Below are positions 1 to 39,293 of a stretch of DNA of 39,293 nucleotides, piece after piece (the first letter of the stretch is position 1; each line of letters opens with the position of its first letter). The stretch is from a virus. The translations under genes were made by a program, and so were the position numbers. The notes under the pieces were generated by a model. It worked only from the letters and a program-made list of their open reading frames with translations. It was not told the origin of the DNA and made no database searches. The DNA lies in IMG/VR virus record IMGVR_UViG_3300006086_000002, one strand, 5' to 3'.

Positions 1-110
1 TACCAACTGGCGCGTGTCGGCACCTAACACGATTGCTGTTACCTGGGTGAACACGACGGCTGGCGCTCTTACCCCGCAATCCGGTCCTTGGAATATCGAG
101 GTGATGCGCC
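1..110. repeat. Terminal direct repeat, exact copy of 39184..39293 (circular closure or assembly overlap)
   Basis: The first 110 nt (taccaactggcgcgtgtcgg...gtgatgcgcc) are identical to the last 110 nt. A CDS reads through the junction in frame. Confidence 0.97.
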
Positions 111-17992: not shown

Positions 17993-18471
17993 ACATCTAC
18001 TGGGTCATCGGCAAATATGTGGCTGTTGCTCTTATCGGCGCTGCTGGGTGTTATTGGGCCTACGCTATTCCTCGGGTTGCCGCTCTTAAGGAAGCATCGG
18101 CAAAGGCGGAAGCGGCTGCGGCTAAAGAGCGATCAACATTCCTAGAGGGAGCGAGAAATGAACAGGTCAGACTTCAAGGGCTGGTGGATGCGGCGAACCG
18201 GGCCGCTGACGACGCAAGAATGGCTCGTGATCGTGCTGCTTTCGATCTTGCTGCCGCTAATGCCAGGTTGCGCAACGCAAACAGCACCCTCTCAAATTAC
18301 CTTACAAGACTGCCCGAAGCCGCCAGTTGTCCAGTCTGTGAATCCTCCGCCGCAACCCTCGGGGACGTGGAGCAAAGAATGGCAGACTTTGGTGGACGAT
18401 GCAGCGCAGAGGTTGAAAGGCTTGGAGATTCCGTCCGATACTACGAAGAAGCCTTCGGAGTGAAGAAATGA
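17989..18471 (+). CDS. i-spanin (Rz-like)
   Basis: N-terminal TM (IYWVIGKYVAVALIGAAGCYWAYAI) followed by an Ala/Arg-rich coiled coil. The proposed TTG start at 17989 lies after GGAGGA; GTG at 18019 is an alternative. The upstream part of track ORF 17866.. overlaps the holin. Confidence 0.7.
   Translation: MNIYWVIGKYVAVALIGAAGCYWAYAIPRVAALKEASAKAEAAAAKERSTFLEGARNEQVRLQGLVDAANRAADDARMARDRAAFDLAAANARLRNANSTLSNYLTRLPEAASCPVCESSAATLGDVEQRMADFGGRCSAEVERLGDSVRYYEEAFGVKK
18158..18463 (+). CDS. o-spanin (Rz1-like lipoprotein), fully embedded in the +1 frame of the i-spanin gene
   Basis: RBS GAGGGAG upstream. The signal peptide ends in LLPLMPG|C (a lipobox-like cysteine) and the mature part is proline-rich (CPKPPVVQSVNPPPQPSG). 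Confidence 0.7.
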   Translation: MNRSDFKGWWMRRTGPLTTQEWLVIVLLSILLPLMPGCATQTAPSQITLQDCPKPPVVQSVNPPPQPSGTWSKEWQTLVDDAAQRLKGLEIPSDTTKKPSE

Positions 18472-20821: not shown

Positions 20822-21243
20822 TACGATCCCTCCTTGCTCTTCAGTGCGCCGACAACTTCCTCGATTGCGGCCTCTAGCTCGTGGACTTGCGGCACAGGAC
20901 AGGTTCCAATATCAACCAAAGCTCCGGATAGCCGCGACGCGAAGATGTGGATATCGTCAACCAGCTTCCTCGCCATCGCCTTCTCGTATTCGACTGCCTT
21001 CGCCTGTAGCACCGCGTTATGCTGCTCTTGCGCGAGCTCGAGAGAGGCGATGCGGGAGCGGAGGGAGGCATTCTCTTGCTCTAGGCGCGCGTAGTTCGCT
21101 TCCACCAACTCGCGTCCGCTCATCATGGATGCTGTTTTGAGCGGTGGCTTCGGGCACGGCCCGCTGTAGCCGTGGAACTTGAACATTTCCTCCCCGAGCG
21201 GCATCGGCTCGCCGCAGAGGTCGCACTTTCCGTATTCGCTCAC
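20821..21243 (-). CDS. Hypothetical protein, N-terminal Cys-pair (zinc-ribbon-like) + coiled coil
   Basis: 140 aa with CDLCGEPMPLGEEMFKFHGYSGPCP followed by heptad-rich LEQENASLRSRIASLELAQEQ. Confidence 0.65.
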   Translation of the reverse strand: MSEYGKCDLCGEPMPLGEEMFKFHGYSGPCPKPPLKTASMMSGRELVEANYARLEQENASLRSRIASLELAQEQHNAVLQAKAVEYEKAMARKLVDDIHIFASRLSGALVDIGTCPVPQVHELEAAIEEVVGALKSKEGS

Positions 21244-22199
21244 TTCGGCGTCTCCTTCGCGGCAAGGGCGGCGCGGGCGATGTCCGCGTTGCTCATTAGG
21301 TTGTCTGCTGGTTGTCGTAGTCCGGCTACGATTTCCAGCGCATATCGAAGCCTGTCCCGCTCGGCCTCTAGCTCACGGCAGCGGGATTCTGCGGCTTCGG
21401 TGCGCTCCAACCATCGGGAAAAGTTGAACTTCTTCTCCAACTCCTCAATCCGCTCCGCCTCGGGGGAGGGGTGGGCTTCTTTGACGGCTTCAAGCGCTTC
21501 CTCAAATTCATCCCAGTAGTCCTGCGGCGCACCTCGCCCCATGCCGTCGGGGAAGTCGTACTCCTCGGCTTCAGAAGAAAGGCGTTCGCAAGCGGCGATT
21601 AACTTCGCCACCGGAGCAGCCTTCGCCTCGGGCTGCGCTGCGGGGACAACACCGGCGCATCCTGAGAACGGAGCGACTCCTGCCGTAGCCATGAACGCAA
21701 CCGATTCTCCGATTGCAGATTGCGAGTTGGGTGGAATGACCGGGCACGAACAGGTGAGAATGTGGCACCCGCTCATTATTCCTGCTTGGCACCGCTTCCA
21801 AACCGCCTCCCCCTGCGCTGCGGGTGGGGGAGGGACGCTGAGTTCTCGGACTTCTCTCCAAGCAGCGCACGAAGCACAGGCAGACTTCGGCTTCATCCCG
21901 CCATAGCAGCAGATCCCAACCGCCTCCCCCTGCACCGCAGGCGCTTCCTCGGCCATCATTGCTCGTATCCTCGTGCGTGCCTGCGCAATATGCTCTCTCA
22001 TCGCCGGGTCCTTCTCAAGTTCTGCCACAAACTCGTCGATCCCGATGGTGTTCGGCAACTCCGCAGGCGCTTCCTCCGGGGTGGAGAGAAACTTCCTCGT
22101 GCCTTCAATCATGGCCTTCCAGTTGGTGCCCCACGTTTCATGCGTGGACTCTTCTGCCGCCACGCACCATGCTTCCAGCAACCTCCGAGCTTCGTTCAT
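21240..22199 (-). CDS. Hypothetical Cys-rich early protein (319 aa)
   Basis: The start is placed at MNEARRLLEAW, after RBS AAGGAG. The longer track ORF (to 22265) overlaps the upstream gene. QGEAV is repeated and there are Cys clusters. Confidence 0.65.
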   Translation of the reverse strand: MNEARRLLEAWCVAAEESTHETWGTNWKAMIEGTRKFLSTPEEAPAELPNTIGIDEFVAELEKDPAMREHIAQARTRIRAMMAEEAPAVQGEAVGICCYGGMKPKSACASCAAWREVRELSVPPPPAAQGEAVWKRCQAGIMSGCHILTCSCPVIPPNSQSAIGESVAFMATAGVAPFSGCAGVVPAAQPEAKAAPVAKLIAACERLSSEAEEYDFPDGMGRGAPQDYWDEFEEALEAVKEAHPSPEAERIEELEKKFNFSRWLERTEAAESRCRELEAERDRLRYALEIVAGLRQPADNLMSNADIARAALAAKETPK

Positions 22200-22495
22200 T
22201 GCGGCTCCTTTCCTGCGATTTCCTCTGCGCGGCGGATGATCGCGGCGGCGCACTGATCCACCCACCCGCGAGCGAACGCAGCGGCGATGCTTTCATTGCC
22301 AGCCGTTTGCTCGTTCTGTGCCTCGCACACCTTAGCCGCCTCACGCATCCCGGCCACGAACGCAGCGCGGCGGATGTCGCAGACCAACTTGTTTACGCCT
22401 GCATCCAGCATCCAGCCTTCCGGCAGCGGCACAATCTCTTCTAGGTTCATTCCTTGCTCCTCATGGATCTCGCAGACGCGCCACGCACGCCTCAT
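22196..22495 (-). CDS. Hypothetical early protein
   Basis: 99 aa from ATG 22495 (ATGA overlap, RBS AAGGAG). ATG 22450 (RBS GAGGAG) is an alternative start. Confidence 0.55.
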   Translation of the reverse strand: MRRAWRVCEIHEEQGMNLEEIVPLPEGWMLDAGVNKLVCDIRRAAFVAGMREAAKVCEAQNEQTAGNESIAAAFARGWVDQCAAAIIRRAEEIAGKEPQ

Positions 22496-26052: not shown

Positions 26053-26081
26053 ACAGTAGCCCGTCTATTGACAGTTGTCAA
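26053..26081 (-). promoter_or_regulatory. Sigma70-type promoter with palindromic -35/operator (TTGACAACTGTCAA-N9-TACTGT), leftward, overlapping the last codons of rsr
   Basis: The minus strand reads TTGACA (26081-26076), a 17-nt spacer, TACTGT (26058-26053), then TCGTCC. These are the same core elements as the 27571 promoter. Confidence 0.55.
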
Positions 26082-27381
26082 GCTCTAATTGCCGGATATA
26101 TTCCACCACCGATTCCGACCATCCGTCGATCTTGTTCCATGCTCCGTATCCGACTCCGTTCTCGTAAGCTGCGACATTGATGATGTAGCCTTTCCCCTTG
26201 GGGTTCGGGATCCGGTCTGCGCTTTGTTCGTCGGTAATGACGATCAGGCGCTCGCAGCCTGGATAGACAGAGTAGACGGCATGGATGGCATTCCCGAGGC
26301 GAGTCCCGCCAAATGGCATGCATTGTTCCAGAAGGTGCTTGAGTCCAAATCCCCTGCGGGGCGCAAGCTCTCCGCATTGTTCGCTGAAAGCAAAAACTCG
26401 CACCTTTTCTGCCGTTTCTCGCAGGATCATCGCAAGACCGCAGGCAGCATCGAAACGGGTGATTTCGCTCCTGCCGCTTACGCCACTATTCATGCTGCCG
26501 CTGTGATCCACCAGAAGCGCGGTTTTCCCCGGAAGCTTGGGCAGTTCCTGCATGCACTTGAACATGGTTTGTTCCAGCGCGTCTTCAAGGCGAGGCGCAT
26601 GGCGAGCAGCGGAAATGAACCGGAAAGGCAGTACGCGCTCCACGTTCACAGTCGCCAAAGCTTCGCGGATCTTATCCTCCGAAACACCGGATTCAATCAT
26701 GTTTCGCAGGTTGCGAAGCAATGCCAAAGCGCCAAGCTTCTTTTCGTCTAGCAGGCGCTCGAAAGTCTCCTTTTTGTCCGCGCCACCAGAAAGCGCAACC
26801 TCCCAGGTGTCGGGAGTCTGCAAGGTGTTCTCTGCAAGTTTCTTGAACAATGTCGCCTGTTCCTCGTTTGCGGGCTTTGCGTGGGATAAAAACAACACAT
26901 CCCGAAGCTTTACCGCTCCATCCCGGTTGTACTTGGCAAGGGAATATTCGTTGAATTTCTTCAGGGCGCGAGCAAGACCAATCTTCAATTGCGCAGGCAA
27001 AGGCGCGTCCTTCTTCTCCTTCCAGTAAAGTGAAAGGAGTTCCCCGAGTTCGTCCGGGCGCTGGATAACTTCGGCAATCAAATCGCCCATCTGACGGCCC
27101 TTATGGGTCCGTAGAGCCTCCCGAACCAGCAGGAGGGGCACATGCCGCATATTCCCCTTGCCGCGAGCTTCTAGGGCGATTTGAGCGATCTTCGGAAAAG
27201 GAACTTGGCGGCACAGATCGGCAATACGCTTGCCGATTTCCTGTCCATCTTCGTAGAAGGAGTCTTCCCACAGCATGCAGCACATGACGCTGCGGCGAAG
27301 AGCCTGTTCCGCGTTCATGCGGGACGCGGTAGCTCCTTCGTGGGTTTTTTCGGTGAATTTGATTGCGGTGTTGGTGCGCAC
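26065..27381 (-). CDS. rsr: Ro60/Rsr ortholog (TROVE domain + vWA/MIDAS domain RNA-binding protein)
   Basis: Collinear matches to human Ro60: [23 protein letters not shown] vs [34 protein letters not shown] vs [19 protein letters not shown] vs [19 protein letters not shown] vs LLAVDVSASMN; FGGTRLG vs [16 protein letters not shown] vs FIVFTDNET. The start is placed at GTG 27381 after GGAGG. The track start TTG 27414 has no RBS and lies inside the structured leader. Confidence 0.9.
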   Translation of the reverse strand: [438 protein letters not shown]

Positions 27382-27400: not shown

Positions 27401-27547
27401 GCTTGGTGCGGCAATGGGGGAACGTACGCTTAACAGGGATTCTTCTCCCAATGAGGAACCTGTCAGCTACACCACCCACGAAGACTTGCCGGAACAAACG
27501 GTTAAGGGCTGTTCATTTAGCAGATGAAACCCTTACCTTCACCAAGC
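27401..27547 (-). ncRNA. Highly structured 5' leader of rsr; candidate Y-RNA-like / Ro60-binding element
   Basis: A hand fold pairs 20 consecutive nt (27401-27420) with three collinear segments. The pairs are 27401-08/27540-47 (8 bp), 27409-14/27486-91 (6 bp) and 27415-20/27472-78 (6 bp with one bulge). Next come 27424-37/27459-70 (12 bp, two 1-nt bulges), an apical stem 27440-47/27453-58 with a 5-nt loop, and a side hairpin 27503-35. Two pairs are G.U only on the minus-strand RNA. Confidence 0.5.
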
Positions 27548-27555
27548 ACAGGCGA

Positions 27556-27584
27556 AGAGTAACTAGAGAATTGACAACTGTCAA
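27556..27584 (-). promoter_or_regulatory. Leftward early promoter (drives the rsr leader): TTGACA-17-TACTCT
   Basis: The minus strand reads TTGACA (27584-27579), spacer gttgtcaattctctagt and TACTCT (27561-27556). The predicted +1 near 27549 coincides with the 5' strand of the leader's closing helix. Confidence 0.55.
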
Positions 27585-27599
27585 GAACTATTTTACTAT
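27571..27599 (+). promoter_or_regulatory. Rightward early promoter: TTGACA-17-TACTAT, with the -35 inside the palindrome TTGACAACTGTCAA
   Basis: Consensus -35 at 27571-27576, an exact 17-nt spacer and -10 TACTAT at 27594-27599. The ATG at 27606 sits at the expected +1, implying a leaderless mRNA. Confidence 0.6.
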
Positions 27600-27605
27600 T
27601 CGTCC

Positions 27606-27761
27606 ATGGAAAAATCAGCCGTTGTACGCAAGCGACAGATGACCCGGTTACGCAAGGTGGGCGTGTCGGATGCTTTCATCGCCCGCAAGTTCGGAATCAG
27701 CCGGGAGCGGGTGGGGCAGATATTGGGGCGCAGAGGGAAGGGGAAAGAATGTTGCTCATAG
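27606..27761 (+). CDS. Small helix-turn-helix protein (51 aa), candidate early regulator
   Basis: Product MEKSAVVRKRQMTRLRKVGVSDAFIARKFGISRERVGQILGRRGKGKECCS. FGISRERVGQIL resembles HTH recognition helices such as sigma region 4.2 (GVSRERVRQI). It is below the ORF-track cutoff. Confidence 0.55.
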   Translation: MEKSAVVRKRQMTRLRKVGVSDAFIARKFGISRERVGQILGRRGKGKECCS

Positions 27762-27922
27762 ACAAGCTTATCGTTACTTGGGCTGTGTTGTTTTTCGTCA
27801 TTTGTGGATGCGGCATGGCATTTTCCGATCAACCAAAATATTCCAGGATCATTGTCAGGACGGCAGCTCTTTGGGTTGCGGTGTTTTTGTTTTTTATTCT
27901 TTTTGATGTTTGGAGCAAATGA
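27749..27922 (+). CDS. Small membrane protein (57 aa, 2 TM)
   Basis: RBS AAGGGGA upstream. Product MLLIDKLIVTWAVLFFVICGCGMAFSDQPKYSRIIVRTAALWVAVFLFFILFDVWSK. There is an ATGA overlap with the next gene. Confidence 0.5.
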   Translation: MLLIDKLIVTWAVLFFVICGCGMAFSDQPKYSRIIVRTAALWVAVFLFFILFDVWSK

Positions 27923-28284: not shown

Positions 28285-28452
28285 ATGGCTAACCTGAAGA
28301 CTGCAACACCTATGCGCATGCGCTTTCACTGGAAACGGGCTAACGAGTGCATCAAGGACTTGCAGGACAAGCGCGCCAGGATCGATGATGCGCTGCGGCA
28401 GTTGATTCCACTAGTGGCGGATAAGAACAACGGAAAAGGCTTGACAGGGTAA
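28285..28452 (+). CDS. Hypothetical early protein (55 aa)
   Basis: RBS GGAGG lies 6 nt upstream of ATG 28285. The upstream part of track ORF 28222.. has no RBS. Confidence 0.55.
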   Translation: MANLKTATPMRMRFHWKRANECIKDLQDKRARIDDALRQLIPLVADKNNGKGLTG

Positions 28453-28469
28453 ATAAGGGAGATAAAATC

Positions 28470-28559
28470 ATGGGGCAGGCTTTGGCGAGCTTGTGGACGT
28501 TAACTGGAGAGTTTGCGGATGTATTATTGTTTTTACGCATGCGGGATAGGATCGGGTAA
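28470..28559 (+). CDS. Possible micro-ORF (29 aa)
   Basis: RBS AAGGGAG lies upstream of the ATG. Product MGQALASLWTLTGEFADVLLFLRMRDRIG. The stop sits in the loop of a hairpin. It may instead be part of a noncoding RNA. Confidence 0.25.
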   Translation: MGQALASLWTLTGEFADVLLFLRMRDRIG

Positions 28560-28620
28560 CCGATCTGCCTCCCTCTCCAGGCAGCGCCACCTGCCCGCAG
28601 TCGTAAGCACGATGAGATAG

Positions 28621-28655
28621 CCCCGGGGGTCGAAAGATCCTCGGGGTATTTTTTT
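28621..28655 (+). terminator. Rho-independent terminator (11-bp stem, GAAA tetraloop, T7 tract)
   Basis: CCCCGGGGGTC-GAAA-GATCCTCGGGG (9 Watson-Crick + 2 G.U pairs) is followed by TATTTTTTT at 28647-28655. It is unidirectional, with no T tract on the other strand. Confidence 0.8.
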
Positions 28656-28656
28656 G

Positions 28657-28907
28657 CCTGCCGGACTCCGCTCGTTAGCAAGGGCACAATCGGCCGCGCG
28701 GAAGAACAGAGCTGGCACCGTCCTAGGCCAGTAAATATCGGGATTGCGCTTCTCACGCGGCGCACGCTCTTAAAGCCTACCAGGGCACGGGCGGCAAAAC
28801 AGGTATCGAAAGCTCCAATGGTCGGGCATTCTCCCGGACAGCGTCTCATCCCACGATACGGGGTACCTGACAATCTAGAGTTCTGGGTTTTGCTAGCACC
28901 GGGCAGG
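28657..28907 (+). other. ORF-free region with long-range closing helices; candidate structured RNA of unknown function
   Basis: cctgccgg (28657-64) pairs with ccgGgcagg (28899-907, one bulged G). gttagcaa(gg) (28674-83) pairs with (tt)ttgctagc (28888-97). Internal helices include 28693-98/28756-61, 28803-08/28854-59 and hairpin 28821-39. There is no plausible ORF on either strand. Confidence 0.3.
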
Positions 28908-28924
28908 AGCACGTGGCGTGATCT

Positions 28925-29134
28925 ATGGAGAGAAAAATGAAGAAAATGACTTCTGAGCAATGGTGGAGCATCTATGGAAAGCGCAGGGAAGAGGACGAAG
29001 CTGCAAGGAAAGCAAGTCTCTCGGCAGAATGCAGGATCGCTAAAGACGACGACCCGAGATGGACAAAATGGGAATGGCAAGGTACAAAGTGGTCACGTCG
29101 AAACATTGCACCAGAAGAAAATACGGCTTTCTAG
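28925..29134 (+). CDS. Hypothetical protein (Trp/Lys/Glu-rich)
   Basis: 69-aa ORF. The alternative start ATG 28937 has a better RBS (GGAGA). The segment is A/T-rich. Confidence 0.55.
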   Translation: MERKMKKMTSEQWWSIYGKRREEDEAARKASLSAECRIAKDDDPRWTKWEWQGTKWSRRNIAPEENTAF

Positions 29135-30009: not shown

Positions 30010-30297
30010 ATGGGCATGGCGGACAAGAAGTTTGACAGCAAGGGCGGCAGCAATGCCATGCGCCAGTCTGGCACGGACAAGGGCGAGAAGGGCGAGACTG
30101 GGGAGCGTATCCCTGCGAAGGCTTCGAGCATCGACAAGACGCGCTCTGCTGGCATTACTGGCGGGGTGGGGATGGGGAACCAGGACCGTCCTCGCAACCA
30201 GTCGGAAGTCATGGAGAGTATCCATACGGATACTGGTGCCAAGGGTGATGGTCATGCGTACCATCATGTCCGCGAGTATGGCAAAGAGCGGTATTGA
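30010..30297 (+). CDS. Hypothetical hydrophilic low-complexity protein (Gly/Lys/Asp-rich)
   Basis: 95-aa ORF with RBS AAGGAA upstream. Confidence 0.5.
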   Translation: MGMADKKFDSKGGSNAMRQSGTDKGEKGETGERIPAKASSIDKTRSAGITGGVGMGNQDRPRNQSEVMESIHTDTGAKGDGHAYHHVREYGKERY

Positions 30298-32813: not shown

Positions 32814-33267
32814 AGAGGTAGTGATTGACGAGTTCTTTGCCAACCAGCGCATGCCGCACGGGGTTCGCATCCGGCACATTGCGACGGGCATCCAGATCGA
32901 GGGGAACTGTGCCAGCGAGGCGAGCAAAGGCCAGCTGATTGATACGCTGATGACGAAGCTCTCTCAATTTGTCCCCGCAACGAGCCAGGAAGAGCATGGC
33001 AGGCCGACAGCGGATAACACCGACTTGCAGCGCCAAGTATGGGAGTTGCAGGCGCAGTTAGCCGCGTTGACTGGAAAGCAGGTAACTCCGAAGAAGCGTG
33101 GAAGGCCCGCGAAGGCCAAGACCGTTGAAGTCCTGTCGCCTGCGGGATACAGCGTGCTGGACCCGAGCAAAGTGCAGCCTCCTGCGGCTACGTTTGTCCA
33201 GGAGACGCGCAGTTTCAAGCCGCCGCAGACGGTTGCGGTTAGCCATGTGAAGGATATTGCCGCGTGA
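32800..33267 (+). CDS. Hypothetical protein
   Basis: 155-aa ORF between the terminase and portal genes. Confidence 0.55.
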   Translation: MLKLEEVVIDEFFANQRMPHGVRIRHIATGIQIEGNCASEASKGQLIDTLMTKLSQFVPATSQEEHGRPTADNTDLQRQVWELQAQLAALTGKQVTPKKRGRPAKAKTVEVLSPAGYSVLDPSKVQPPAATFVQETRSFKPPQTVAVSHVKDIAA

Positions 33268-33551
33268 GTTGGATATCCGGCCTGGAGCATGAGGCGATCT
33301 GCACGCAGCTACGCGATGAGATTGCCCGGCTCCGCACCGGACTCGATTACGAGATCCATGCGCATAGGGACGATATTGAAGCGGTTAAGAGATCGTTAAT
33401 TGACCGGTTCCAAGCGGCACAGAACGAGATCGAGCACTGGAAGCAAAAGGAAGCGCAGCAGAACCGCAGGCGCATCTTGGCAGAGGAAGAGGCTGCGGCT
33501 TATCTGGAACAGTTGCACTCGCTAAAGGCAAAGCATGAGCGTCGCGCGTGA
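33264..33551 (+). CDS. Hypothetical coiled-coil protein
   Basis: 95-aa ORF rich in charged heptads, with a GTGA overlap. Confidence 0.55.
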   Translation: MSWISGLEHEAICTQLRDEIARLRTGLDYEIHAHRDDIEAVKRSLIDRFQAAQNEIEHWKQKEAQQNRRRILAEEEAAAYLEQLHSLKAKHERRA

Positions 33552-36269: not shown

Positions 36270-37073
36270 ATGGCTGTTGTTCTAGTTTCCAACGAGAAGA
36301 CGGAAGAGCCCAAAGTTGAAGAAGTCGCCGCTCCCGAGCCCGAAAAGAAGGACAAGCACGCTCCCAGCGAAAGAATCTCGACCCTTGCCGCCCAGCGCCG
36401 CGAAGCTCTTGCTGAGGCTGCCGAGGCCAAAAAGGAGCGAGATGAACTAAAGAAGAGACTCGATGCGATTGAGAACAAGGCGTCAGAGGACGAGCCGAAG
36501 CCCGATAAATTCACCGACGCTGTGGAGTTTGGTAAGGCTTATGGCAAATGGCTTGCAGCCAAAGAGCGAAAAGAGGATCAGGCCCGGAACGCTGCGGAAA
36601 GAGAACAGGCTGAGCAAAAGAAGCTGATTGACTCCTGGAACAAGCGTTACACGAAGGTTGCACGGGAATATGAGGATTTCGAGGAAGTCATGGCGGATAA
36701 ACTCGAAATCGCCCATGGCACGGTCATTGACGCGATCATGGAAAGTGATATCGGGCCGCACATCAATTATTATCTATCGAAGAATCGAGAGGAAGCCGAG
36801 AAAATCAACGAAATGGGCGTTAAAGCAGCCCTGAAGTACCTGGGCAGGATCGAGGCGAGGATTGAATCCGAACTTGAATCGAAGGCTGAGGCAAGAAAGG
36901 CGGCTAAGGATGAGGATGGAACGCCGCGCCGCCGCCTACCGGAGCCTCCTGCGCCGATTAATCCTGTTCGCGGCATTGGCGCTACTGGCCTTGGCAACGT
37001 GGATTCATCGGGAAATGTGACTAATGCCAGGGCATTTAAGCAGGAAATGCGCAAAAAGATGTATGGCTACTAG
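36270..37073 (+). CDS. Scaffolding protein (probable)
   Basis: 267 aa, highly charged Glu/Lys/Ala-rich helical sequence located between the portal and coat genes. RBS GGAGGA upstream. Confidence 0.75.
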   Translation: MAVVLVSNEKTEEPKVEEVAAPEPEKKDKHAPSERISTLAAQRREALAEAAEAKKERDELKKRLDAIENKASEDEPKPDKFTDAVEFGKAYGKWLAAKERKEDQARNAAEREQAEQKKLIDSWNKRYTKVAREYEDFEEVMADKLEIAHGTVIDAIMESDIGPHINYYLSKNREEAEKINEMGVKAALKYLGRIEARIESELESKAEARKAAKDEDGTPRRRLPEPPAPINPVRGIGATGLGNVDSSGNVTNARAFKQEMRKKMYGY

Positions 37074-37235
37074 ACATGTAAGAAATACAGTGGTATTTTA
37101 GCCACTAATGCAATTCCCGCCGCCTGGAGTGTTATCCAGGACGATTAGCCCCCGCTAGGGGCGCATACCGCGTGAATCCTCCATGAGAGTTAGAGGGCTG
37201 TTGGTTGGCCTTCTTTCAACTTTTGTGGAGATGAC

Positions 37236-38501
37236 ATGAGCAACAATCTGCTTACCATCTCCAAGATCACCAACCTGGCGTTGATGGTCTTGGAGAACGA
37301 GCTTACCTTCGCCAGCGAAGTCAATCGAGACTATGACGACCAGTTTGCGGTTTCTGGAGCGAAGATCGGTAACACGGTCAACGTCCGCCGTCCTGGCCGC
37401 TTCATCGGCACGACCGGCCCGGCGCTCAACGTTGAGGACTTCAACGAGACGAGCATCCCGGTTGTCCTGACGACCCAATTCCACGTTGATTGCCAGTTCA
37501 TCACGCAGGACATGGCCCTTAGCATGGATCTCTTCGGGGACCGTGTTCTCAAGCCCGCCATCGCTGCGGTTGCGAACCGCGTGGACCGTGACGGCCTCCT
37601 GATGGCTAAGAACAACACGGCGAATATCGTCGGTGTTCCCGGCACCCGTCCGACTGGTCTTCTGACCTACCTCACCGCTGCTGCCTACGTTGATTCGGAA
37701 GGTGGCCCGCGTGACGGTCGGCGTGCGGTGGTGATCGAGCCCTTTACGTCTGCGGTCATCGTTGACTCGATCAAGGGTCTGTTTGTCCCGCAGGAAGCCA
37801 TTGGCGAGCAGTATCGCAAGGGCCTGATGGGGCGTGACTCTGGCGGGATGAACTGGAAGATGGACCAGAACGTGATTGCTCATACCTTCGGGTCCTGGGC
37901 TACCACGGCTGGCACGCTGACGGCCAACACCTCGGGCGCTTTCACGGGCTCGCTGGCGACTGGATGGGCTGCTACCTCGACCATCACCCTGACCAACTCG
38001 CAGACTCTGACGCTCAACCAGGGCGACACGATCCAGATTGCGGGTGTGTTTGCGGCGAACCCGCAGAACCGTCAGACTTACGGCGGCAACATCCTGCGTT
38101 CATTTGTCGTGACGCAAACCGTTACGGCTACGGCTGGTACGTTCTCGGTCACCGTTACCCCGGCGATCATCACGGGCGGCCAGTTCCAGAACGTCGTGGT
38201 GGGATCGACTTCGGCTACGGCTACGGTTACCCCGCTCTCGATTGCTGGTACGACTGCAACGGCGGTTGTTTCTCCGCAGAACGTTCTTTTCCATCGGAAT
38301 GCGTACACCCTTGCGGTGGCCGATCTTCCGGTGCCTGAGGGCGTTGACTTTGCGGGCCGGGCAAGTGACGAGGAGACTGGGCTTTCGCTGCGGATCGTGC
38401 GTCAATACACGATCAACAACGACGCGCTGCCGACTCGTATTGAAATCCTCTACGGCTGGGCGCCGCTCTATCAAGAGCTTGCCTGCCGCATCGCCGCTTA
38501 A
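37236..38501 (+). CDS. Major capsid (coat) protein, P22 gp5-like family
   Basis: The N-terminus ITNLALMVLENELTFASEVNRDYDDQFAVSGAKIGNTVNVRRPGRF fits the P22-coat family signature (..AL..LEN.L.....V.RDY...F....G.T..IR.P.+F). RBS GGAGA upstream and the position follows the scaffold gene. Confidence 0.9.
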   Translation: MSNNLLTISKITNLALMVLENELTFASEVNRDYDDQFAVSGAKIGNTVNVRRPGRFIGTTGPALNVEDFNETSIPVVLTTQFHVDCQFITQDMALSMDLFGDRVLKPAIAAVANRVDRDGLLMAKNNTANIVGVPGTRPTGLLTYLTAAAYVDSEGGPRDGRRAVVIEPFTSAVIVDSIKGLFVPQEAIGEQYRKGLMGRDSGGMNWKMDQNVIAHTFGSWATTAGTLTANTSGAFTGSLATGWAATSTITLTNSQTLTLNQGDTIQIAGVFAANPQNRQTYGGNILRSFVVTQTVTATAGTFSVTVTPAIITGGQFQNVVVGSTSATATVTPLSIAGTTATAVVSPQNVLFHRNAYTLAVADLPVPEGVDFAGRASDEETGLSLRIVRQYTINNDALPTRIEILYGWAPLYQELACRIAA

Positions 38502-38995: not shown

Positions 38996-39293
38996 ATGCC
39001 TAGCACCACCATACAAAGAGGGAACGCGCTGTTTGACACGCTCATCGCCCCTACTATCACTTGGTCTGGTTCGGTGGGCGCTACGTCTACCGCTGAACTG
39101 ACTGCGACCATCCCTGGATTTCAGGTGGGCGATGTTATCTCTGGAACGTCTATTGGTGCTGCGCTGACGACTGGGCTTTCGTATACCAACTGGCGCGTGT
39201 CGGCACCTAACACGATTGCTGTTACCTGGGTGAACACGACGGCTGGCGCTCTTACCCCGCAATCCGGTCCTTGGAATATCGAGGTGATGCGCC
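38996..39293 (+). CDS. 5' part of a small virion-module protein; continues at 1..148 across the circular junction (111 aa in total)
   Basis: ATG at 38996 after the terminator. The product begins MPSTTIQRGNALFDTLIAPTITWSGSVGATSTAELTATIPGFQVGD... and is a tandem paralog of 151..513. Confidence 0.6.
   Translation, partial: MPSTTIQRGNALFDTLIAPTITWSGSVGATSTAELTATIPGFQVGDVISGTSIGAALTTGLSYTNWRVSAPNTIAVTWVNTTAGALTPQSGPWNIEVMR
39184..39293. repeat. Terminal direct repeat, exact copy of 1..110
   Basis: It is identical to 1..110 over 110 nt. Confidence 0.97.

What the first reader, a model, noticed from the sequence alone, without database searches (positions are those of the whole stretch)
28453..28924. 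Largest ORF-free region (~470 nt): stacked hairpins, a strong intrinsic terminator, then a ~250-nt segment closed by long-range helices
This genome's genes mostly overlap, yet this stretch has no credible ORF on either strand apart from a doubtful 29-codon micro-ORF.

It contains several structural elements in order:
- back-to-back hairpins gatcgg-GTAA-ccgatc (28550-65) and ctgcct-N8-aggcag (28565-84);
- a small stem at 28601-12;
- an 11-bp GAAA-tetraloop terminator with a T7 tract (28621-55);
- a segment whose ends pair, 28657-64 with 28899-907 (one bulged G) and 28674-83 with 28888-97, enclosing further helices (28693-98/28756-61, 28803-08/28854-59, hairpin 28821-39).

Downstream genes (28925 onward) have no obvious promoter of their own. 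Read-through or antitermination is therefore implied, and the tandem hairpins before the terminator recall put-type antiterminator RNAs.

Alternatively, the closed 250-nt element could be a trans-acting partner RNA for the phage Ro60 (bacterial rsr loci often carry two Y RNAs), an origin, or a recombination site. I could not find a tRNA-like T-arm in it.
Basis: partly seen in the sequence, partly recalled or inferred. Interest (0 to 1): 0.65.

Follow-up and report, generated by a model that had tools for sequence, protein, structure and literature searches.

The report
Conserved phage small-RNA gene cassette
The gap holds a self-contained small-RNA gene (promoter, about 130 nt of tightly folded RNA, strong terminator) that recurs with the small protein gene after it in a few distant phages; its role is unknown, and the partner RNAs of the phage Ro60 protein lie elsewhere.

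Summary

**First 215 nt: one unit.**
- It holds the genome's only 11/12 sigma-70 promoter match (28441-28468).
- A ~130-nt RNA (28474-28606) follows. Its ends pair into a rod tipped by a three-way junction.
- The genome's strongest intrinsic terminator closes it (28620-28655).
- It is the most stably folded of 214 windows.

**Conservation.** The same layout precedes homologues of the next gene (28937-29134, 65 aa) in three other metagenomic phage lineages. A fourth, cut at its 5' end, keeps only the rod. Sequence has drifted past BLAST detection, yet promoter position, fold and terminator persist. Flanking genes differ, so RNA plus small gene form a cassette.

**What failed.**
- The "closed 250-nt segment" folds no better than shuffles, and its 3' arms sit in a window-specific insertion.
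- The unit matches no Rfam family and is not put-like.
- It is not a Y RNA. Two short Y-RNA-like genes lie at 27410-27552 (-), directly upstream of Ro60.

**Best reading (0.45).** A terminator-bounded small RNA whose terminator leak feeds the partner gene. An antitermination gate is the main rival.

The parts
28441..28468 (+). sigma-70-type promoter TTGACA-16 nt-TAAAAT. The -35 overlaps the last codons of the upstream 55-aa gene. The predicted start is about 28474-28476.
   Evidence: It is the only 11/12 match in the 39-kb window. TTGAC plus a -10-like hexamer 17 nt later sits at the same position in four relatives: L159, L160, L154 and L161. Transcription itself is not shown.
28474..28606 (+). 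Structured RNA domain. A rod is closed by the 5' and 3' ends and tipped by a three-way junction. One apical hairpin is 28514-17/28536-39 with an 18-nt AU-rich loop. The other is 28543-46/28570-73, holding 28549-55/28560-66 with a GUAA loop.
   Evidence: MFE equals the centroid at -57.1 kcal/mol, z = -3.8 on the + strand against -3.25 on the - strand. The same architecture is predicted independently in L159, L160, L154, L161 and L351, with rod-only z from -1.7 to -7.1. No Rfam family matches.
28600..28613 (+). Short linker hairpin GUCGU/ACGAU between the rod and the terminator.
   Evidence: it is unpaired in the fold. It is not conserved in the relatives.
28620..28655 (+). Intrinsic terminator: 11-12-bp G+C-rich stem, GAAA tetraloop, U7 tract.
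   Evidence: It is the strongest terminator-like site of the window. The hairpin is -23.2 kcal/mol and forms under every constraint tried, so no antiterminator pairing exists. It is 80% identical over 40 nt to the L154 terminator, E = 1.5e-6. Analogous terminators are present in L159, L160 and L161.
28656..28936 (+). Spacer between the terminator and the small gene. It has no supported structure. It includes a boxA-like CGCTCTTAA at 28765-73 and short blocks shared with relatives (AAGGGC...CGGCCGCGCGGA at 28680-28703; GCTGGCACCGTCC at 28711-23).
   Evidence: z = +0.35 and +0.81. Sub-pieces are not significant. Alignment with the relatives' spacers shows shared blocks only in the first ~90 nt and a window-specific insertion at 28870-28930. 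The boxA match is not significant.
28937..29134 (+). Small W-rich protein gene (65 aa), the conserved partner of the RNA slot.
   Evidence: An identical 65-aa product is on record. Homologues of 43-49% identity exist: P0124, P0125, P0126, P0132 and P0133. Every homologue with upstream DNA has a structured RNA in front of it. It has no Pfam, PHROG or PADLOC family.
28470..28559 (+). 29-codon micro-ORF with a good Shine-Dalgarno (AAGGGAG at 28454-61). Probably not a gene.
   Evidence: The reading frame is not conserved. L159 and L160 differ by indels of +3, +4 and -1 inside the homologous stretch, and L154 and L161 have no ATG there. Codon score is -0.13.

Best explanation
The first 215 nt of the gap (28441-28655) are an autonomous small-RNA gene.

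How it most likely works:
1. A near-consensus sigma-70 promoter starts transcription at about 28475.
2. The first ~130 nt fold into a stable rod whose 5' and 3' ends pair, with a three-way junction at the tip.
3. Most polymerases stop at the very strong terminator 28620-55, releasing a structured RNA of about 180 nt.
4. The same terminator also ends the early rightward operon that starts at 27606.
5. The minority of transcripts that leak through continue across the spacer into the 65-aa gene at 28937. In this phage they also reach the nin-like genes behind it.
6. The terminator therefore sets a high RNA-to-protein ratio.

RNA and small gene are inherited together as a cassette, so the RNA most likely acts with, or controls, that protein.

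Shown here: the sequence signals, the fold stability, and the conservation of layout and linkage.
Inferred: that the promoter fires, that the terminator leaks, and that RNA and protein are functional partners.
For: - The best promoter match and the best terminator of the genome lie 150 nt apart on the same strand, in the largest gap.
- The stretch between them is the most stably folded of 214 windows. It scores z = -5.6 with the terminator and -3.8 without.
- The + strand folds about 10 kcal/mol better than the - strand.
- Homologues of the 65-aa gene were found only after an exhaustive HMMER search.
- Upstream of them, in groups B (L152/L159, L160) and C (L154, L161), the order is the same. 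It runs: TTGAC, 17 nt, a -10-like hexamer, 110-135 nt of RNA, a terminator with a tetraloop (GCAA or CAAA), a 190-450-nt spacer, then the gene.
- In group D (L351, cut at its 5' end) only a rod running into a U-run, a spacer and the gene are visible.
- BLAST sees only the terminator between the window and L154. Even so, each RNA independently folds into a rod plus a two-hairpin junction.
- Between L159 and L160, none of 51 predicted pairs is broken, 2 show compensatory changes and 5 show one-sided changes. One hairpin grew by 2 bp and swapped a GAAA loop for UUCG.
- Indels of +3, +4 and -1 rule out a conserved reading frame.
- Genes on both sides differ between lineages. In group C the small gene is followed by convergent genes.
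- In L157/L158 the same slot holds another structured RNA, Rfam RF02932, at 92 bits.
- The terminator hairpin forms under every constraint tried, so control is not by an alternative pairing.
Against: - There is no expression data of any kind.
- Only five or six sequences from four lineages exist, so covariation is thin: 2 compensatory pairs in one pair of sequences.
- For L154/L161 RNAalifold prefers a competing fold.
- Rod-only z is weak in L160 (-1.7) and L161 (-1.9).
- The window-derived covariance model scores L152 at only 9.2 bits (E = 0.18), though at the expected place, and misses L154.
- The -10 hexamers of the relatives are poor: TAGGCT, CATAGT, CATCGT.
- A partnership between the RNA and the 65-aa protein rests on linkage alone.
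- The protein has no known family, and its predicted structure is poor (pLDDT 65).
- In this phage about 30 kb of essential genes lie behind the terminator with no visible promoter. That fits an active antitermination mechanism at least as well as passive leak.
Confidence: 0.45

Rival explanations
1. Antitermination gate of the lambda PR'-tR' type. The promoter is constitutive and its transcript is stopped at 28655, giving a short by-product RNA. A phage early protein, possibly the 55-aa ORFan just upstream, makes RNA polymerase terminator-resistant. That switches on everything downstream: the nin-like genes, GroES, terminase, structural and lysis genes.
For: - The layout is a strong promoter, a leader of about 180 nt and a strong terminator, with no sigma-70 promoter behind it.
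- The downstream genes are DUF1064, a YbcO/HNH-like gene, GroES, small terminase and large terminase.
- Phage PBR31 is related through its large terminase. It has an annotated Q gene followed at once by a terminator, and another GAAA-loop terminator before GroES.
- PR' is always active and is terminated just downstream, yielding the sRNA StxS (PMC7547250).
Against: - No early ORF matches a Q-family or any other antiterminator family.
- The upstream gene is an ORFan and is not conserved between lineages.
- In group C the unit precedes only the small gene and then convergent genes, so gating late genes cannot be the family-wide role.
- A by-product leader would not need a conserved fold.
- No clear -10-like pause element lies in the first 25 nt.
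Confidence: 0.25
2. Cis-acting RNA antiterminator, a functional analogue of HK022 put. The folded nascent RNA binds the polymerase that made it and carries it through 28655 and later terminators. The terminator then blocks only polymerases arriving from the early promoter.
For: - The order promoter, structured RNA starting at +1, terminator is conserved, and the fold is kept while the sequence drifts.
- No antiterminator protein is recognisable.
- A short motif YUUGG at about +8 to +15 is kept in all five sequences.
Against: - The architecture differs from put, which has two stem-loops of ~70 nt in a V shape (PMC9378689).
- There is one copy per genome.
- In group C only one small gene lies downstream.
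- In L351 the rod itself runs into the U-tract, which looks like termination rather than antitermination.
- Late genes would then be constitutively on.
Confidence: 0.1
3. Nothing more than the terminator of the early operon. The promoter match is a by-product of a stop codon, an AT-rich ribosome-binding spacer and the 29-codon micro-ORF. The rod is a 3' stabilising structure or chance.
For: - About 0.4 matches of 11/12 are expected by chance in 39 kb (my own estimate).
- The -10 lies between a good Shine-Dalgarno and an ATG.
- The relatives have weak -10 hexamers.
Against: - TTGAC is invariant at the same distance from the RNA in five sequences whose surrounding bases differ.
- The micro-ORF is not conserved.
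- The fold is an outlier in the genome and recurs in the relatives.
Confidence: 0.1
4. Partner (Y) RNA of the phage Ro60. Alternatively a replication origin, an attachment site or a missed protein gene.
For: - Ro60 (TROVE plus vWA domains) is encoded 1 kb away at 26065-27381 on the - strand.
- The rod with paired ends has a generic Y-RNA shape.
- GNCGAANG occurs at 28629-36.
Against: - The YrlA/YrlB covariance model finds nothing in the gap, but finds two Y-RNA-like elements at 27410-27552 (-), right next to Ro60 where the relatives have theirs.
- GNCGAANG sits in the terminator loop and is rarer in the window than chance predicts: 18 matches against 28 expected.
- The RNA family also occurs in loci where no Ro60 was seen: no TROVE hit among the genes called in L152-L158, and no ORF of Ro60 size in L161 beyond the small gene.
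- There are no repeats or iterons.
- No frame has coding-like usage, and the indels break any frame.
Confidence: 0.05

Closest known systems
Lambdoid late-promoter leader: PR'-tR' '6S' RNA, known as StxS in Stx phages (PMC7547250)
   Same: Both have a strong promoter followed within ~200 nt by a strong intrinsic terminator, which yields a short abundant RNA. Both sit at the border between the early or regulatory genes and the genes behind. Expression downstream needs read-through. The short RNA can have a role of its own.
   Different: No Q-family gene lies upstream and no pause element or Q-binding site is recognisable. The fold of the leader is conserved here. In some relatives only one small gene follows, so the unit is not tied to late genes.
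HK022 put RNAs (PMC9378689)
   Same: Both are structured RNAs that start at or near +1 of a phage promoter and lie upstream of a terminator. In neither case is a dedicated antiterminator protein recognisable.
   Different: put is about 70 nt with two stem-loops and a triplex, and it occurs as two related copies (putL and putR) behind PL and PR. The RNA here is about 130 nt, a rod with a three-way junction, in a single copy. Sequence similarity to put was not tested.
Type III toxin-antitoxin loci (ToxIN layout; from my own knowledge)
   Same: The gene order is promoter, non-coding RNA, intrinsic terminator, protein gene, with the terminator setting the RNA-to-protein ratio. RNA and protein gene travel together as a cassette.
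   Different: The RNA has no tandem repeats. The protein is 65-118 aa and matches no ToxN, CptN or TenpN family and no PADLOC model. A 190-450-nt spacer separates the terminator from the gene.
Rfam RF02932, Betaproteobacteria-1 RNA
   Same: It occupies the same slot, directly upstream of a homologue of the 65-aa gene, in L157/L158 (92 bits). Those phages share an ERF left arm and one early gene with the window.
   Different: The window's gap does not match RF02932 at E <= 10. No promoter or terminator pair is evident around the L157 copy.
Bacterial and phage Y RNAs (YrlA/YrlB; PMC4201824, PMC12135203)
   Same: The 5' and 3' ends pair into a long stem with a structured distal module, and a Ro60 gene is nearby.
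   Different: The element fails the family model, lies on the other strand 1 kb away, and has no T-arm. The real Y-RNA-like genes of this phage are at 27410-27552 (-).

Membership tests
Intrinsic (Rho-independent) terminator | A G+C-rich hairpin directly followed by a U-tract on the transcribed strand. | tested here: met
   At 28620-55 there are 12 pairs (8 G-C), a GAAA loop and a T7 run. It is the top site of the window. The hairpin is -23.2 kcal/mol and folds at z = -5.1. Its activity has not been measured.
HK022 put RNA | About 70 nt folded as two consecutive stem-loops. | tested here: not met
MFE and centroid give one 130-nt rod with a three-way junction.
HK022 put RNA | Two related copies per genome, behind the leftward and the rightward early promoters. 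| tested here: not met
   Model R1 finds only the element itself in the window. The left arm carries Y-RNA-like genes instead.
HK022 put RNA | Sequence or structure homology to putL or putR. | not tested
   No put model or sequence was compared. No Rfam family of any kind matched.
HK022 put RNA | Makes the transcribing polymerase terminator-resistant through the beta' zinc-binding domain. | not testable with these tools
   This needs transcription assays.
Lambdoid PR'-tR' late leader (Q-dependent) | A strong sigma-70 promoter with an intrinsic terminator within ~200 nt, giving a short RNA. | tested here: met
   An 11/12 promoter at 28441-68 and a terminator ending at 28655, for a predicted RNA of ~180 nt.
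Lambdoid PR'-tR' late leader (Q-dependent) | A Q-family antiterminator gene immediately upstream. | tested here: not met
   The upstream 55/76-aa ORF has no homologue among 5.8 billion proteins. It and four of the other five early ORFs were scanned (Pfam for three, PHROGs for five) and match no antiterminator family; the 57-aa ORF (27749-27922) was not scanned. A novel small antiterminator cannot be excluded.
Lambdoid PR'-tR' late leader (Q-dependent) | A -10-like pause-inducing element in the initially transcribed region, and a Q-binding site in the promoter. | tested here: inconclusive
   By eye there is only TTAACT at about +26 and TATTAT at about +48. Nothing lies within +1 to +25, and no Q-binding consensus exists for an unknown Q.
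Lambdoid PR'-tR' late leader (Q-dependent) | Stands in front of the late (lysis and structural) operon. | tested here: inconclusive
   This holds in the window, with nin-like genes, GroES and terminase downstream. It does not hold in group C, where one small gene and then convergent genes follow.
Y RNA (YrlA/YrlB type) | A match to the family's sequence and structure: 5' GGCG(U/A)AG, 3' CG..UGUUCCC stem, with or without the tRNA-like T and D arms. | tested here: not met
   Model R2 was built from 12 YrlA RNAs of Ro60 relatives, with 21 of 30 pairs compensatory. Run with filters off, it gives no hit at E <= 10 in 28453-28924. No T-loop motif is present.
Y RNA (YrlA/YrlB type) | Encoded next to Ro60 on the same strand. 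| tested here: not met
   The element is on the opposite strand, 1.06 kb from the Ro60 start. The adjacent same-strand slot is filled by two model hits at 27482-27552 and 27410-27481.
Type III toxin-antitoxin | The antitoxin RNA is an array of tandem repeats. | tested here: not met
   Tandem Repeats Finder reports none at a minimum score of 30. The repeat search finds none either.
Type III toxin-antitoxin | The gene order is promoter, RNA, terminator, protein gene. | tested here: met
   The spacer of 190-450 nt is atypical.
Type III toxin-antitoxin | The toxin belongs to the ToxN/AbiQ, CptN or TenpN endoribonuclease families. | tested here: not met
   The small protein and its homologues have no Pfam domain on record and no PHROG or PADLOC hit.
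Rfam RF02932 Betaproteobacteria-1 | Reaches the Rfam covariance-model threshold. | tested here: not met
   There is no hit at E <= 10 in the gap. L157/L158 score 92 bits in the homologous slot.
N-type nut site | boxA followed by a boxB hairpin, upstream of the terminators it overrides, together with an N-like protein. | tested here: not met
   CGCTCTTAA occurs at 28765-73 but downstream of the terminator. The match is not beyond chance (10 matches with at most one mismatch against 7.1 expected). Only a weak 4-bp hairpin follows. No N-like protein was found.

The most novel reading that the evidence does not exclude
The rod-and-junction RNA is a new class of phage regulatory RNA that acts on transcription or on its partner protein. 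One possibility is a cis-acting antiterminator unrelated to put, which licenses only polymerases started at its own promoter to pass the terminator. The other is the RNA half of a new RNA-protein pair, with type III-like logic, carried as a mobile cassette by lambdoid-like phages. Related phages would then fill the same slot with a different RNA (RF02932), which would give that orphan Rfam motif a context.
Probability: 0.2. Interest if true: 0.8.

Novelty: new variant of a known kind. Interest (0 to 1): 0.5.

Why it matters
- Terminator-bounded RNAs at phage operon borders are where lambdoid phages take their main transcriptional decisions, and very few RNA-based solutions are known (put is the classic one).
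- Here a fold is kept across lineages whose sequences no longer align, in a fixed layout and tied to one small gene of unknown function. That is the signature of a working RNA.
- The element is short and self-contained, so promoter and terminator read-through reporters could test it directly.
- The same slot holds the orphan Rfam motif Betaproteobacteria-1 in related phages. This links that motif to a defined gene family.
- As a by-product, the work locates the probable Y RNAs of this phage's Ro60. They are of the short type only, while all the relatives examined also carry a tRNA-like YrlA.

Tried and rejected
**Searches for homologues that found nothing**
- blastn and nhmmer of the gap against INPHARED phages and 149 loci of DUF1064, Ro60 and large-terminase relatives gave nothing.
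- The single-sequence covariance model R1 on the same loci hit only itself.
- Exact 20-22-mers in IMG/VR gave no match.
- Exact-protein look-up returned only identical contigs.
- DUF1064 homologues are at most 60% identical and have no gap upstream.
- The upstream 55-aa protein is an ORFan.
- The degenerate pattern AAGTRGTCGGCA-N-CCAACCG in genomes and IMG/VR gave only chance hits, as checked by blastn and nhmmer.
- The protein profile of the 65-aa family found nothing in viral or genome contigs.

**Readings rejected**
- Attenuation coupled to translation of the micro-ORF: the terminator forms under every ribosome-occupancy constraint.
- A trans target inside the phage: there is no complementarity of 12 nt or more elsewhere in the genome.
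- A sigma-54 promoter at CTGGCAC (28712-18): the GG-to-GC spacing is off by one, and off the other way in L152 (by eye).
- A tRNA-like element: ARAGORN finds none and no T-loop is present.
- Coding potential: no frame in the gap scores as coding, but the test is weak for early genes.

**Inconclusive attempts**
- AlphaFold of the 65-aa protein gave pLDDT 65 and pTM 0.32, so no fold search was made.
- A competing helix joins the 3' strand of the first apical hairpin to the 3' strand of the rod. It exists in all five RNAs and has one compensatory change. It is 2.6-15 kcal/mol less stable than the rod, and its meaning is open.
Full report
**Setting**

- The window is a complete phage genome of about 39.2 kb. 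Its first and last 110 nt are identical.
- It has no close relative among deposited phages. Only the large terminase resembles Xanthomonas phage PBR31, at 72.6% nucleotide identity.
- A leftward arm encodes a methyltransferase, an ERF recombinase and a Ro60 homologue at 26065-27381.
- A rightward arm starts at 27606 with five small genes.
- After the gap come a 65-aa gene, a DUF1064 gene, a YbcO/HNH-like gene, GroES, the small and large terminase and the structural genes.

**Checking the observation**

- All the hairpins and the terminator are at the stated coordinates.
- The terminator (28620-55; 12 pairs, GAAA loop, T7) is the strongest terminator-like site in the window.
- The gap is the largest in the gene chain. 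It ends at 28936, because the next gene starts at ATG 28937 and has real homologues.
TTGACA-16-TAAAAT at 28441-68 is the only 11/12 match in the genome.
- A 242-codon ORF on the other strand spans the gap but has non-coding-like codon usage.
- Promoter to terminator (28474-28656) folds at -83.9 kcal/mol, z = -5.6.
- The 133-nt domain without the terminator has z = -3.8, and its minimum-energy fold equals the centroid. The reverse strand is 10 kcal/mol weaker.
- Among 214 non-overlapping 183-nt windows of the + strand, this one has the lowest z and the lowest energy.
- The favoured fold is a rod closed by the 5' and 3' ends, with a three-way junction carrying two hairpins. It is not two tandem hairpins.
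- The 'closed 250-nt segment' fails every test. It scores z = +0.35 and +0.81, and its sub-pieces range from -1.0 to +0.9.
- Its 3' arms lie in an insertion that the relatives lack.

**Finding relatives**

- Direct searches failed. These were blastn, nhmmer and a single-sequence covariance model against 149 loci of DUF1064, Ro60 and terminase relatives, plus exact k-mers in IMG/VR.
- The flanking DUF1064 protein has no relative above 60% identity, and the upstream 55-aa protein has none at all.
- The key came from the ORF at 28925-29134, which the gene callers on the two identical contigs had skipped. An exhaustive HMMER search found the identical 65-aa product (start 28937) already on record, plus homologues of 45-52% identity. 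A profile search added two more.
- Their contigs show the same arrangement. It consists of a -35 TTGAC with a -10-like hexamer 17 nt on, 110-135 nt of RNA, an intrinsic terminator with a four-base GCAA or CAAA loop, a 190-450-nt spacer, and the gene.
- Four lineages are now known: the window; group B (L152/L159, L160); group C (L154, L161); and group D (L351, cut at its 5' end, where the rod runs straight into a U-tract).
- In a fifth context (L157/L158) the same slot holds Rfam RF02932, Betaproteobacteria-1 RNA, at 92 bits. Those phages have an ERF left arm and share one early gene with the window.

**Is the RNA conserved as a structure?**

- Between lineages BLAST detects only the terminator: window against L154, 80% over 40 nt, E = 1.5e-6.
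- A MAFFT alignment nonetheless lines up an invariant TTGAC, the -10 position, a YUUGG motif at about +8 to +15, and the terminators.
- Each RNA, folded on its own, gives a rod plus a two-hairpin junction.
- With the terminator, z is -5.5, -6.1 and -5.7 for the window, L152 and L154.
- The rod alone gives -3.6, -5.0, -1.7, -3.1, -1.9 and -7.1 for the window, L159, L160, L154, L161 and L351.
- L159 and L160 differ in 12% of columns. None of 51 consensus pairs is broken, 2 are compensatory and 5 change on one side. One junction hairpin gained 2 bp and swapped its GAAA loop for UUCG.
- Their indels (+3, +4, -1) exclude a conserved reading frame. The window's 29-codon micro-ORF, despite a good Shine-Dalgarno, has no counterpart.
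- Caveats apply. There are few sequences, and the window model scores L152 at only 9.2 bits (E = 0.18), though at the expected spot, and misses L154.
- RNAalifold prefers a competing fold for L154/L161. That competing helix exists in all five RNAs but costs 2.6-15 kcal/mol.

**What the unit is tied to**

- Genes on both sides differ between lineages.
- In group C the small gene is followed at once by convergent genes, including a fibre-like one.
- The conserved unit is therefore [promoter - RNA - terminator - spacer - small gene], a cassette, and not a gate in front of late genes as such.
- The small protein is W-rich with the motif RK.SLP..C...DDDP.WT.W. It has no Pfam domain on record and no PHROG or PADLOC match.
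- Its predicted structure is too poor to search with.

**How it most likely works**

- I commit, at 0.45, to a stand-alone small-RNA gene whose terminator does two jobs. It ends the early rightward operon, and it lets only a leak of transcripts reach the partner gene. In this phage the leak also reaches the nin-like genes.
- The RNA would thus be made in large excess over the protein. This is the logic of type III toxin-antitoxin loci.
- Membership of that family fails: there are no tandem repeats, no ToxN-type protein, and a long spacer.
- The terminator forms under every constraint tried, so control is not by alternative pairing.
- The main rival (0.25) is a PR'-tR'-like antitermination gate (PMC7547250). 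The 30 kb of genes without a visible promoter behind the terminator, and the Q-plus-terminator arrangement in PBR31, favour it. The lack of any Q-like gene and the group C context count against it.
- A put-like cis-acting RNA (0.1) fits the conserved order and fold but not the put architecture or copy number (PMC9378689).

**The Ro60 idea**

- Thirty-four Ro60 relatives were fetched.
- Nearly all carry a T-loop motif 100-350 nt upstream of Ro60 on the same strand.
- Twelve of these regions align as YrlA-type RNAs with 21 of 30 pairs compensatory.
- The model built from them finds nothing in the gap.
- It does find two tandem ~71-nt elements at 27482-27552 (27.4 bits, E = 9e-6) and 27410-27481 (16.2 bits, E = 0.01) on the - strand, just upstream of Ro60.
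- These keep the stem motifs and lack the tRNA-like domain. The relatives carry such short forms too.
- An alignment of 20 short forms shows 11 of 12 pairs with compensatory changes.
- The partner RNAs of Ro60 therefore lie outside the finding.

**Verdict**

- What is there is an undescribed, rare but conserved structured-RNA cassette of unknown function.

Noticed in passing
window 27410-27552 (- strand): Two tandem ~71-nt Y-RNA-like elements (short, YrlB-like) lie directly upstream of the Ro60 gene. They score 27.4 and 16.2 bits against a model built from the YrlA RNAs of Ro60 relatives. Unlike nearly all the relatives, this phage has no tRNA-like YrlA.
   Followed up: yes
window 1-110 and 39184-39293: The two ends of the window are identical over 110 nt. 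The window is therefore a complete circular or terminally redundant genome of about 39,183 bp.
   Followed up: partly
window 27555-27606: Two divergent early promoters share the palindrome TTGACAACTGTCAA (27571-84). The rightward one (TTGACA-17-TACTAT) ends 6 nt before the ATG of the 51-aa HTH gene, so that mRNA would be leaderless. The leftward one would start at the first Y-RNA-like element.
   Followed up: partly
L157 3744-3865 and L158 2826-2947: Rfam RF02932 (Betaproteobacteria-1 RNA, an orphan motif) scores 92 bits directly upstream of a homologue of the window's 65-aa gene. It sits in the slot that the new RNA occupies elsewhere. The L351 spacer shares GUGGGAUAGA and GGCGGC with it, by eye.
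   Followed up: partly
window 37066-37248, 33223-33405, 30112-30294 (+ strand): These are the other windows with unusually stable folds in the genome scan: z = -5.7, -5.1 and -4.2, from only 20 shuffles each. The first covers the 162-nt gap before the 421-aa gene at 37236 and holds a TG-extended promoter-like site at 37071-99.
   Followed up: no
L159 796-853 with 889-897; window 28540-45 with 28594-99: A helix competes with the rod by pairing the 3' strand of the first junction hairpin with the 3' strand of the rod. It is present in all five RNAs and has an A-U to G-C compensatory change between L159 and L160. It is 2.6-15 kcal/mol less stable than the rod. It could be a folding intermediate or a switch.
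   Followed up: partly
window 28765-28773: CGCTCTTAA, which from memory is identical to the lambda nutL boxA, lies downstream of the terminator and is followed only by a weak 4-bp hairpin. A second exact copy sits inside a gene at 18081. The match is not beyond chance.
   Followed up: partly
L159/L160 spacer (L159 1040-1200) and L161 1430-1610: The spacers of groups B and C (L161) share a G-rich conserved block just before the small gene, with at least one compensatory change (CUAUGG/CCAUGG against CUGUGG/CCACAG). This may be a second structured element. It is absent from the window.
   Followed up: no
window 21600-22100 (- strand ORF 21240-22265): The 341-aa ORF contains imperfect direct repeats with a 117-126-nt period (CCGCCTCCCCCTGCGCTGCGGG). 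No PHROG family matches.
   Followed up: no
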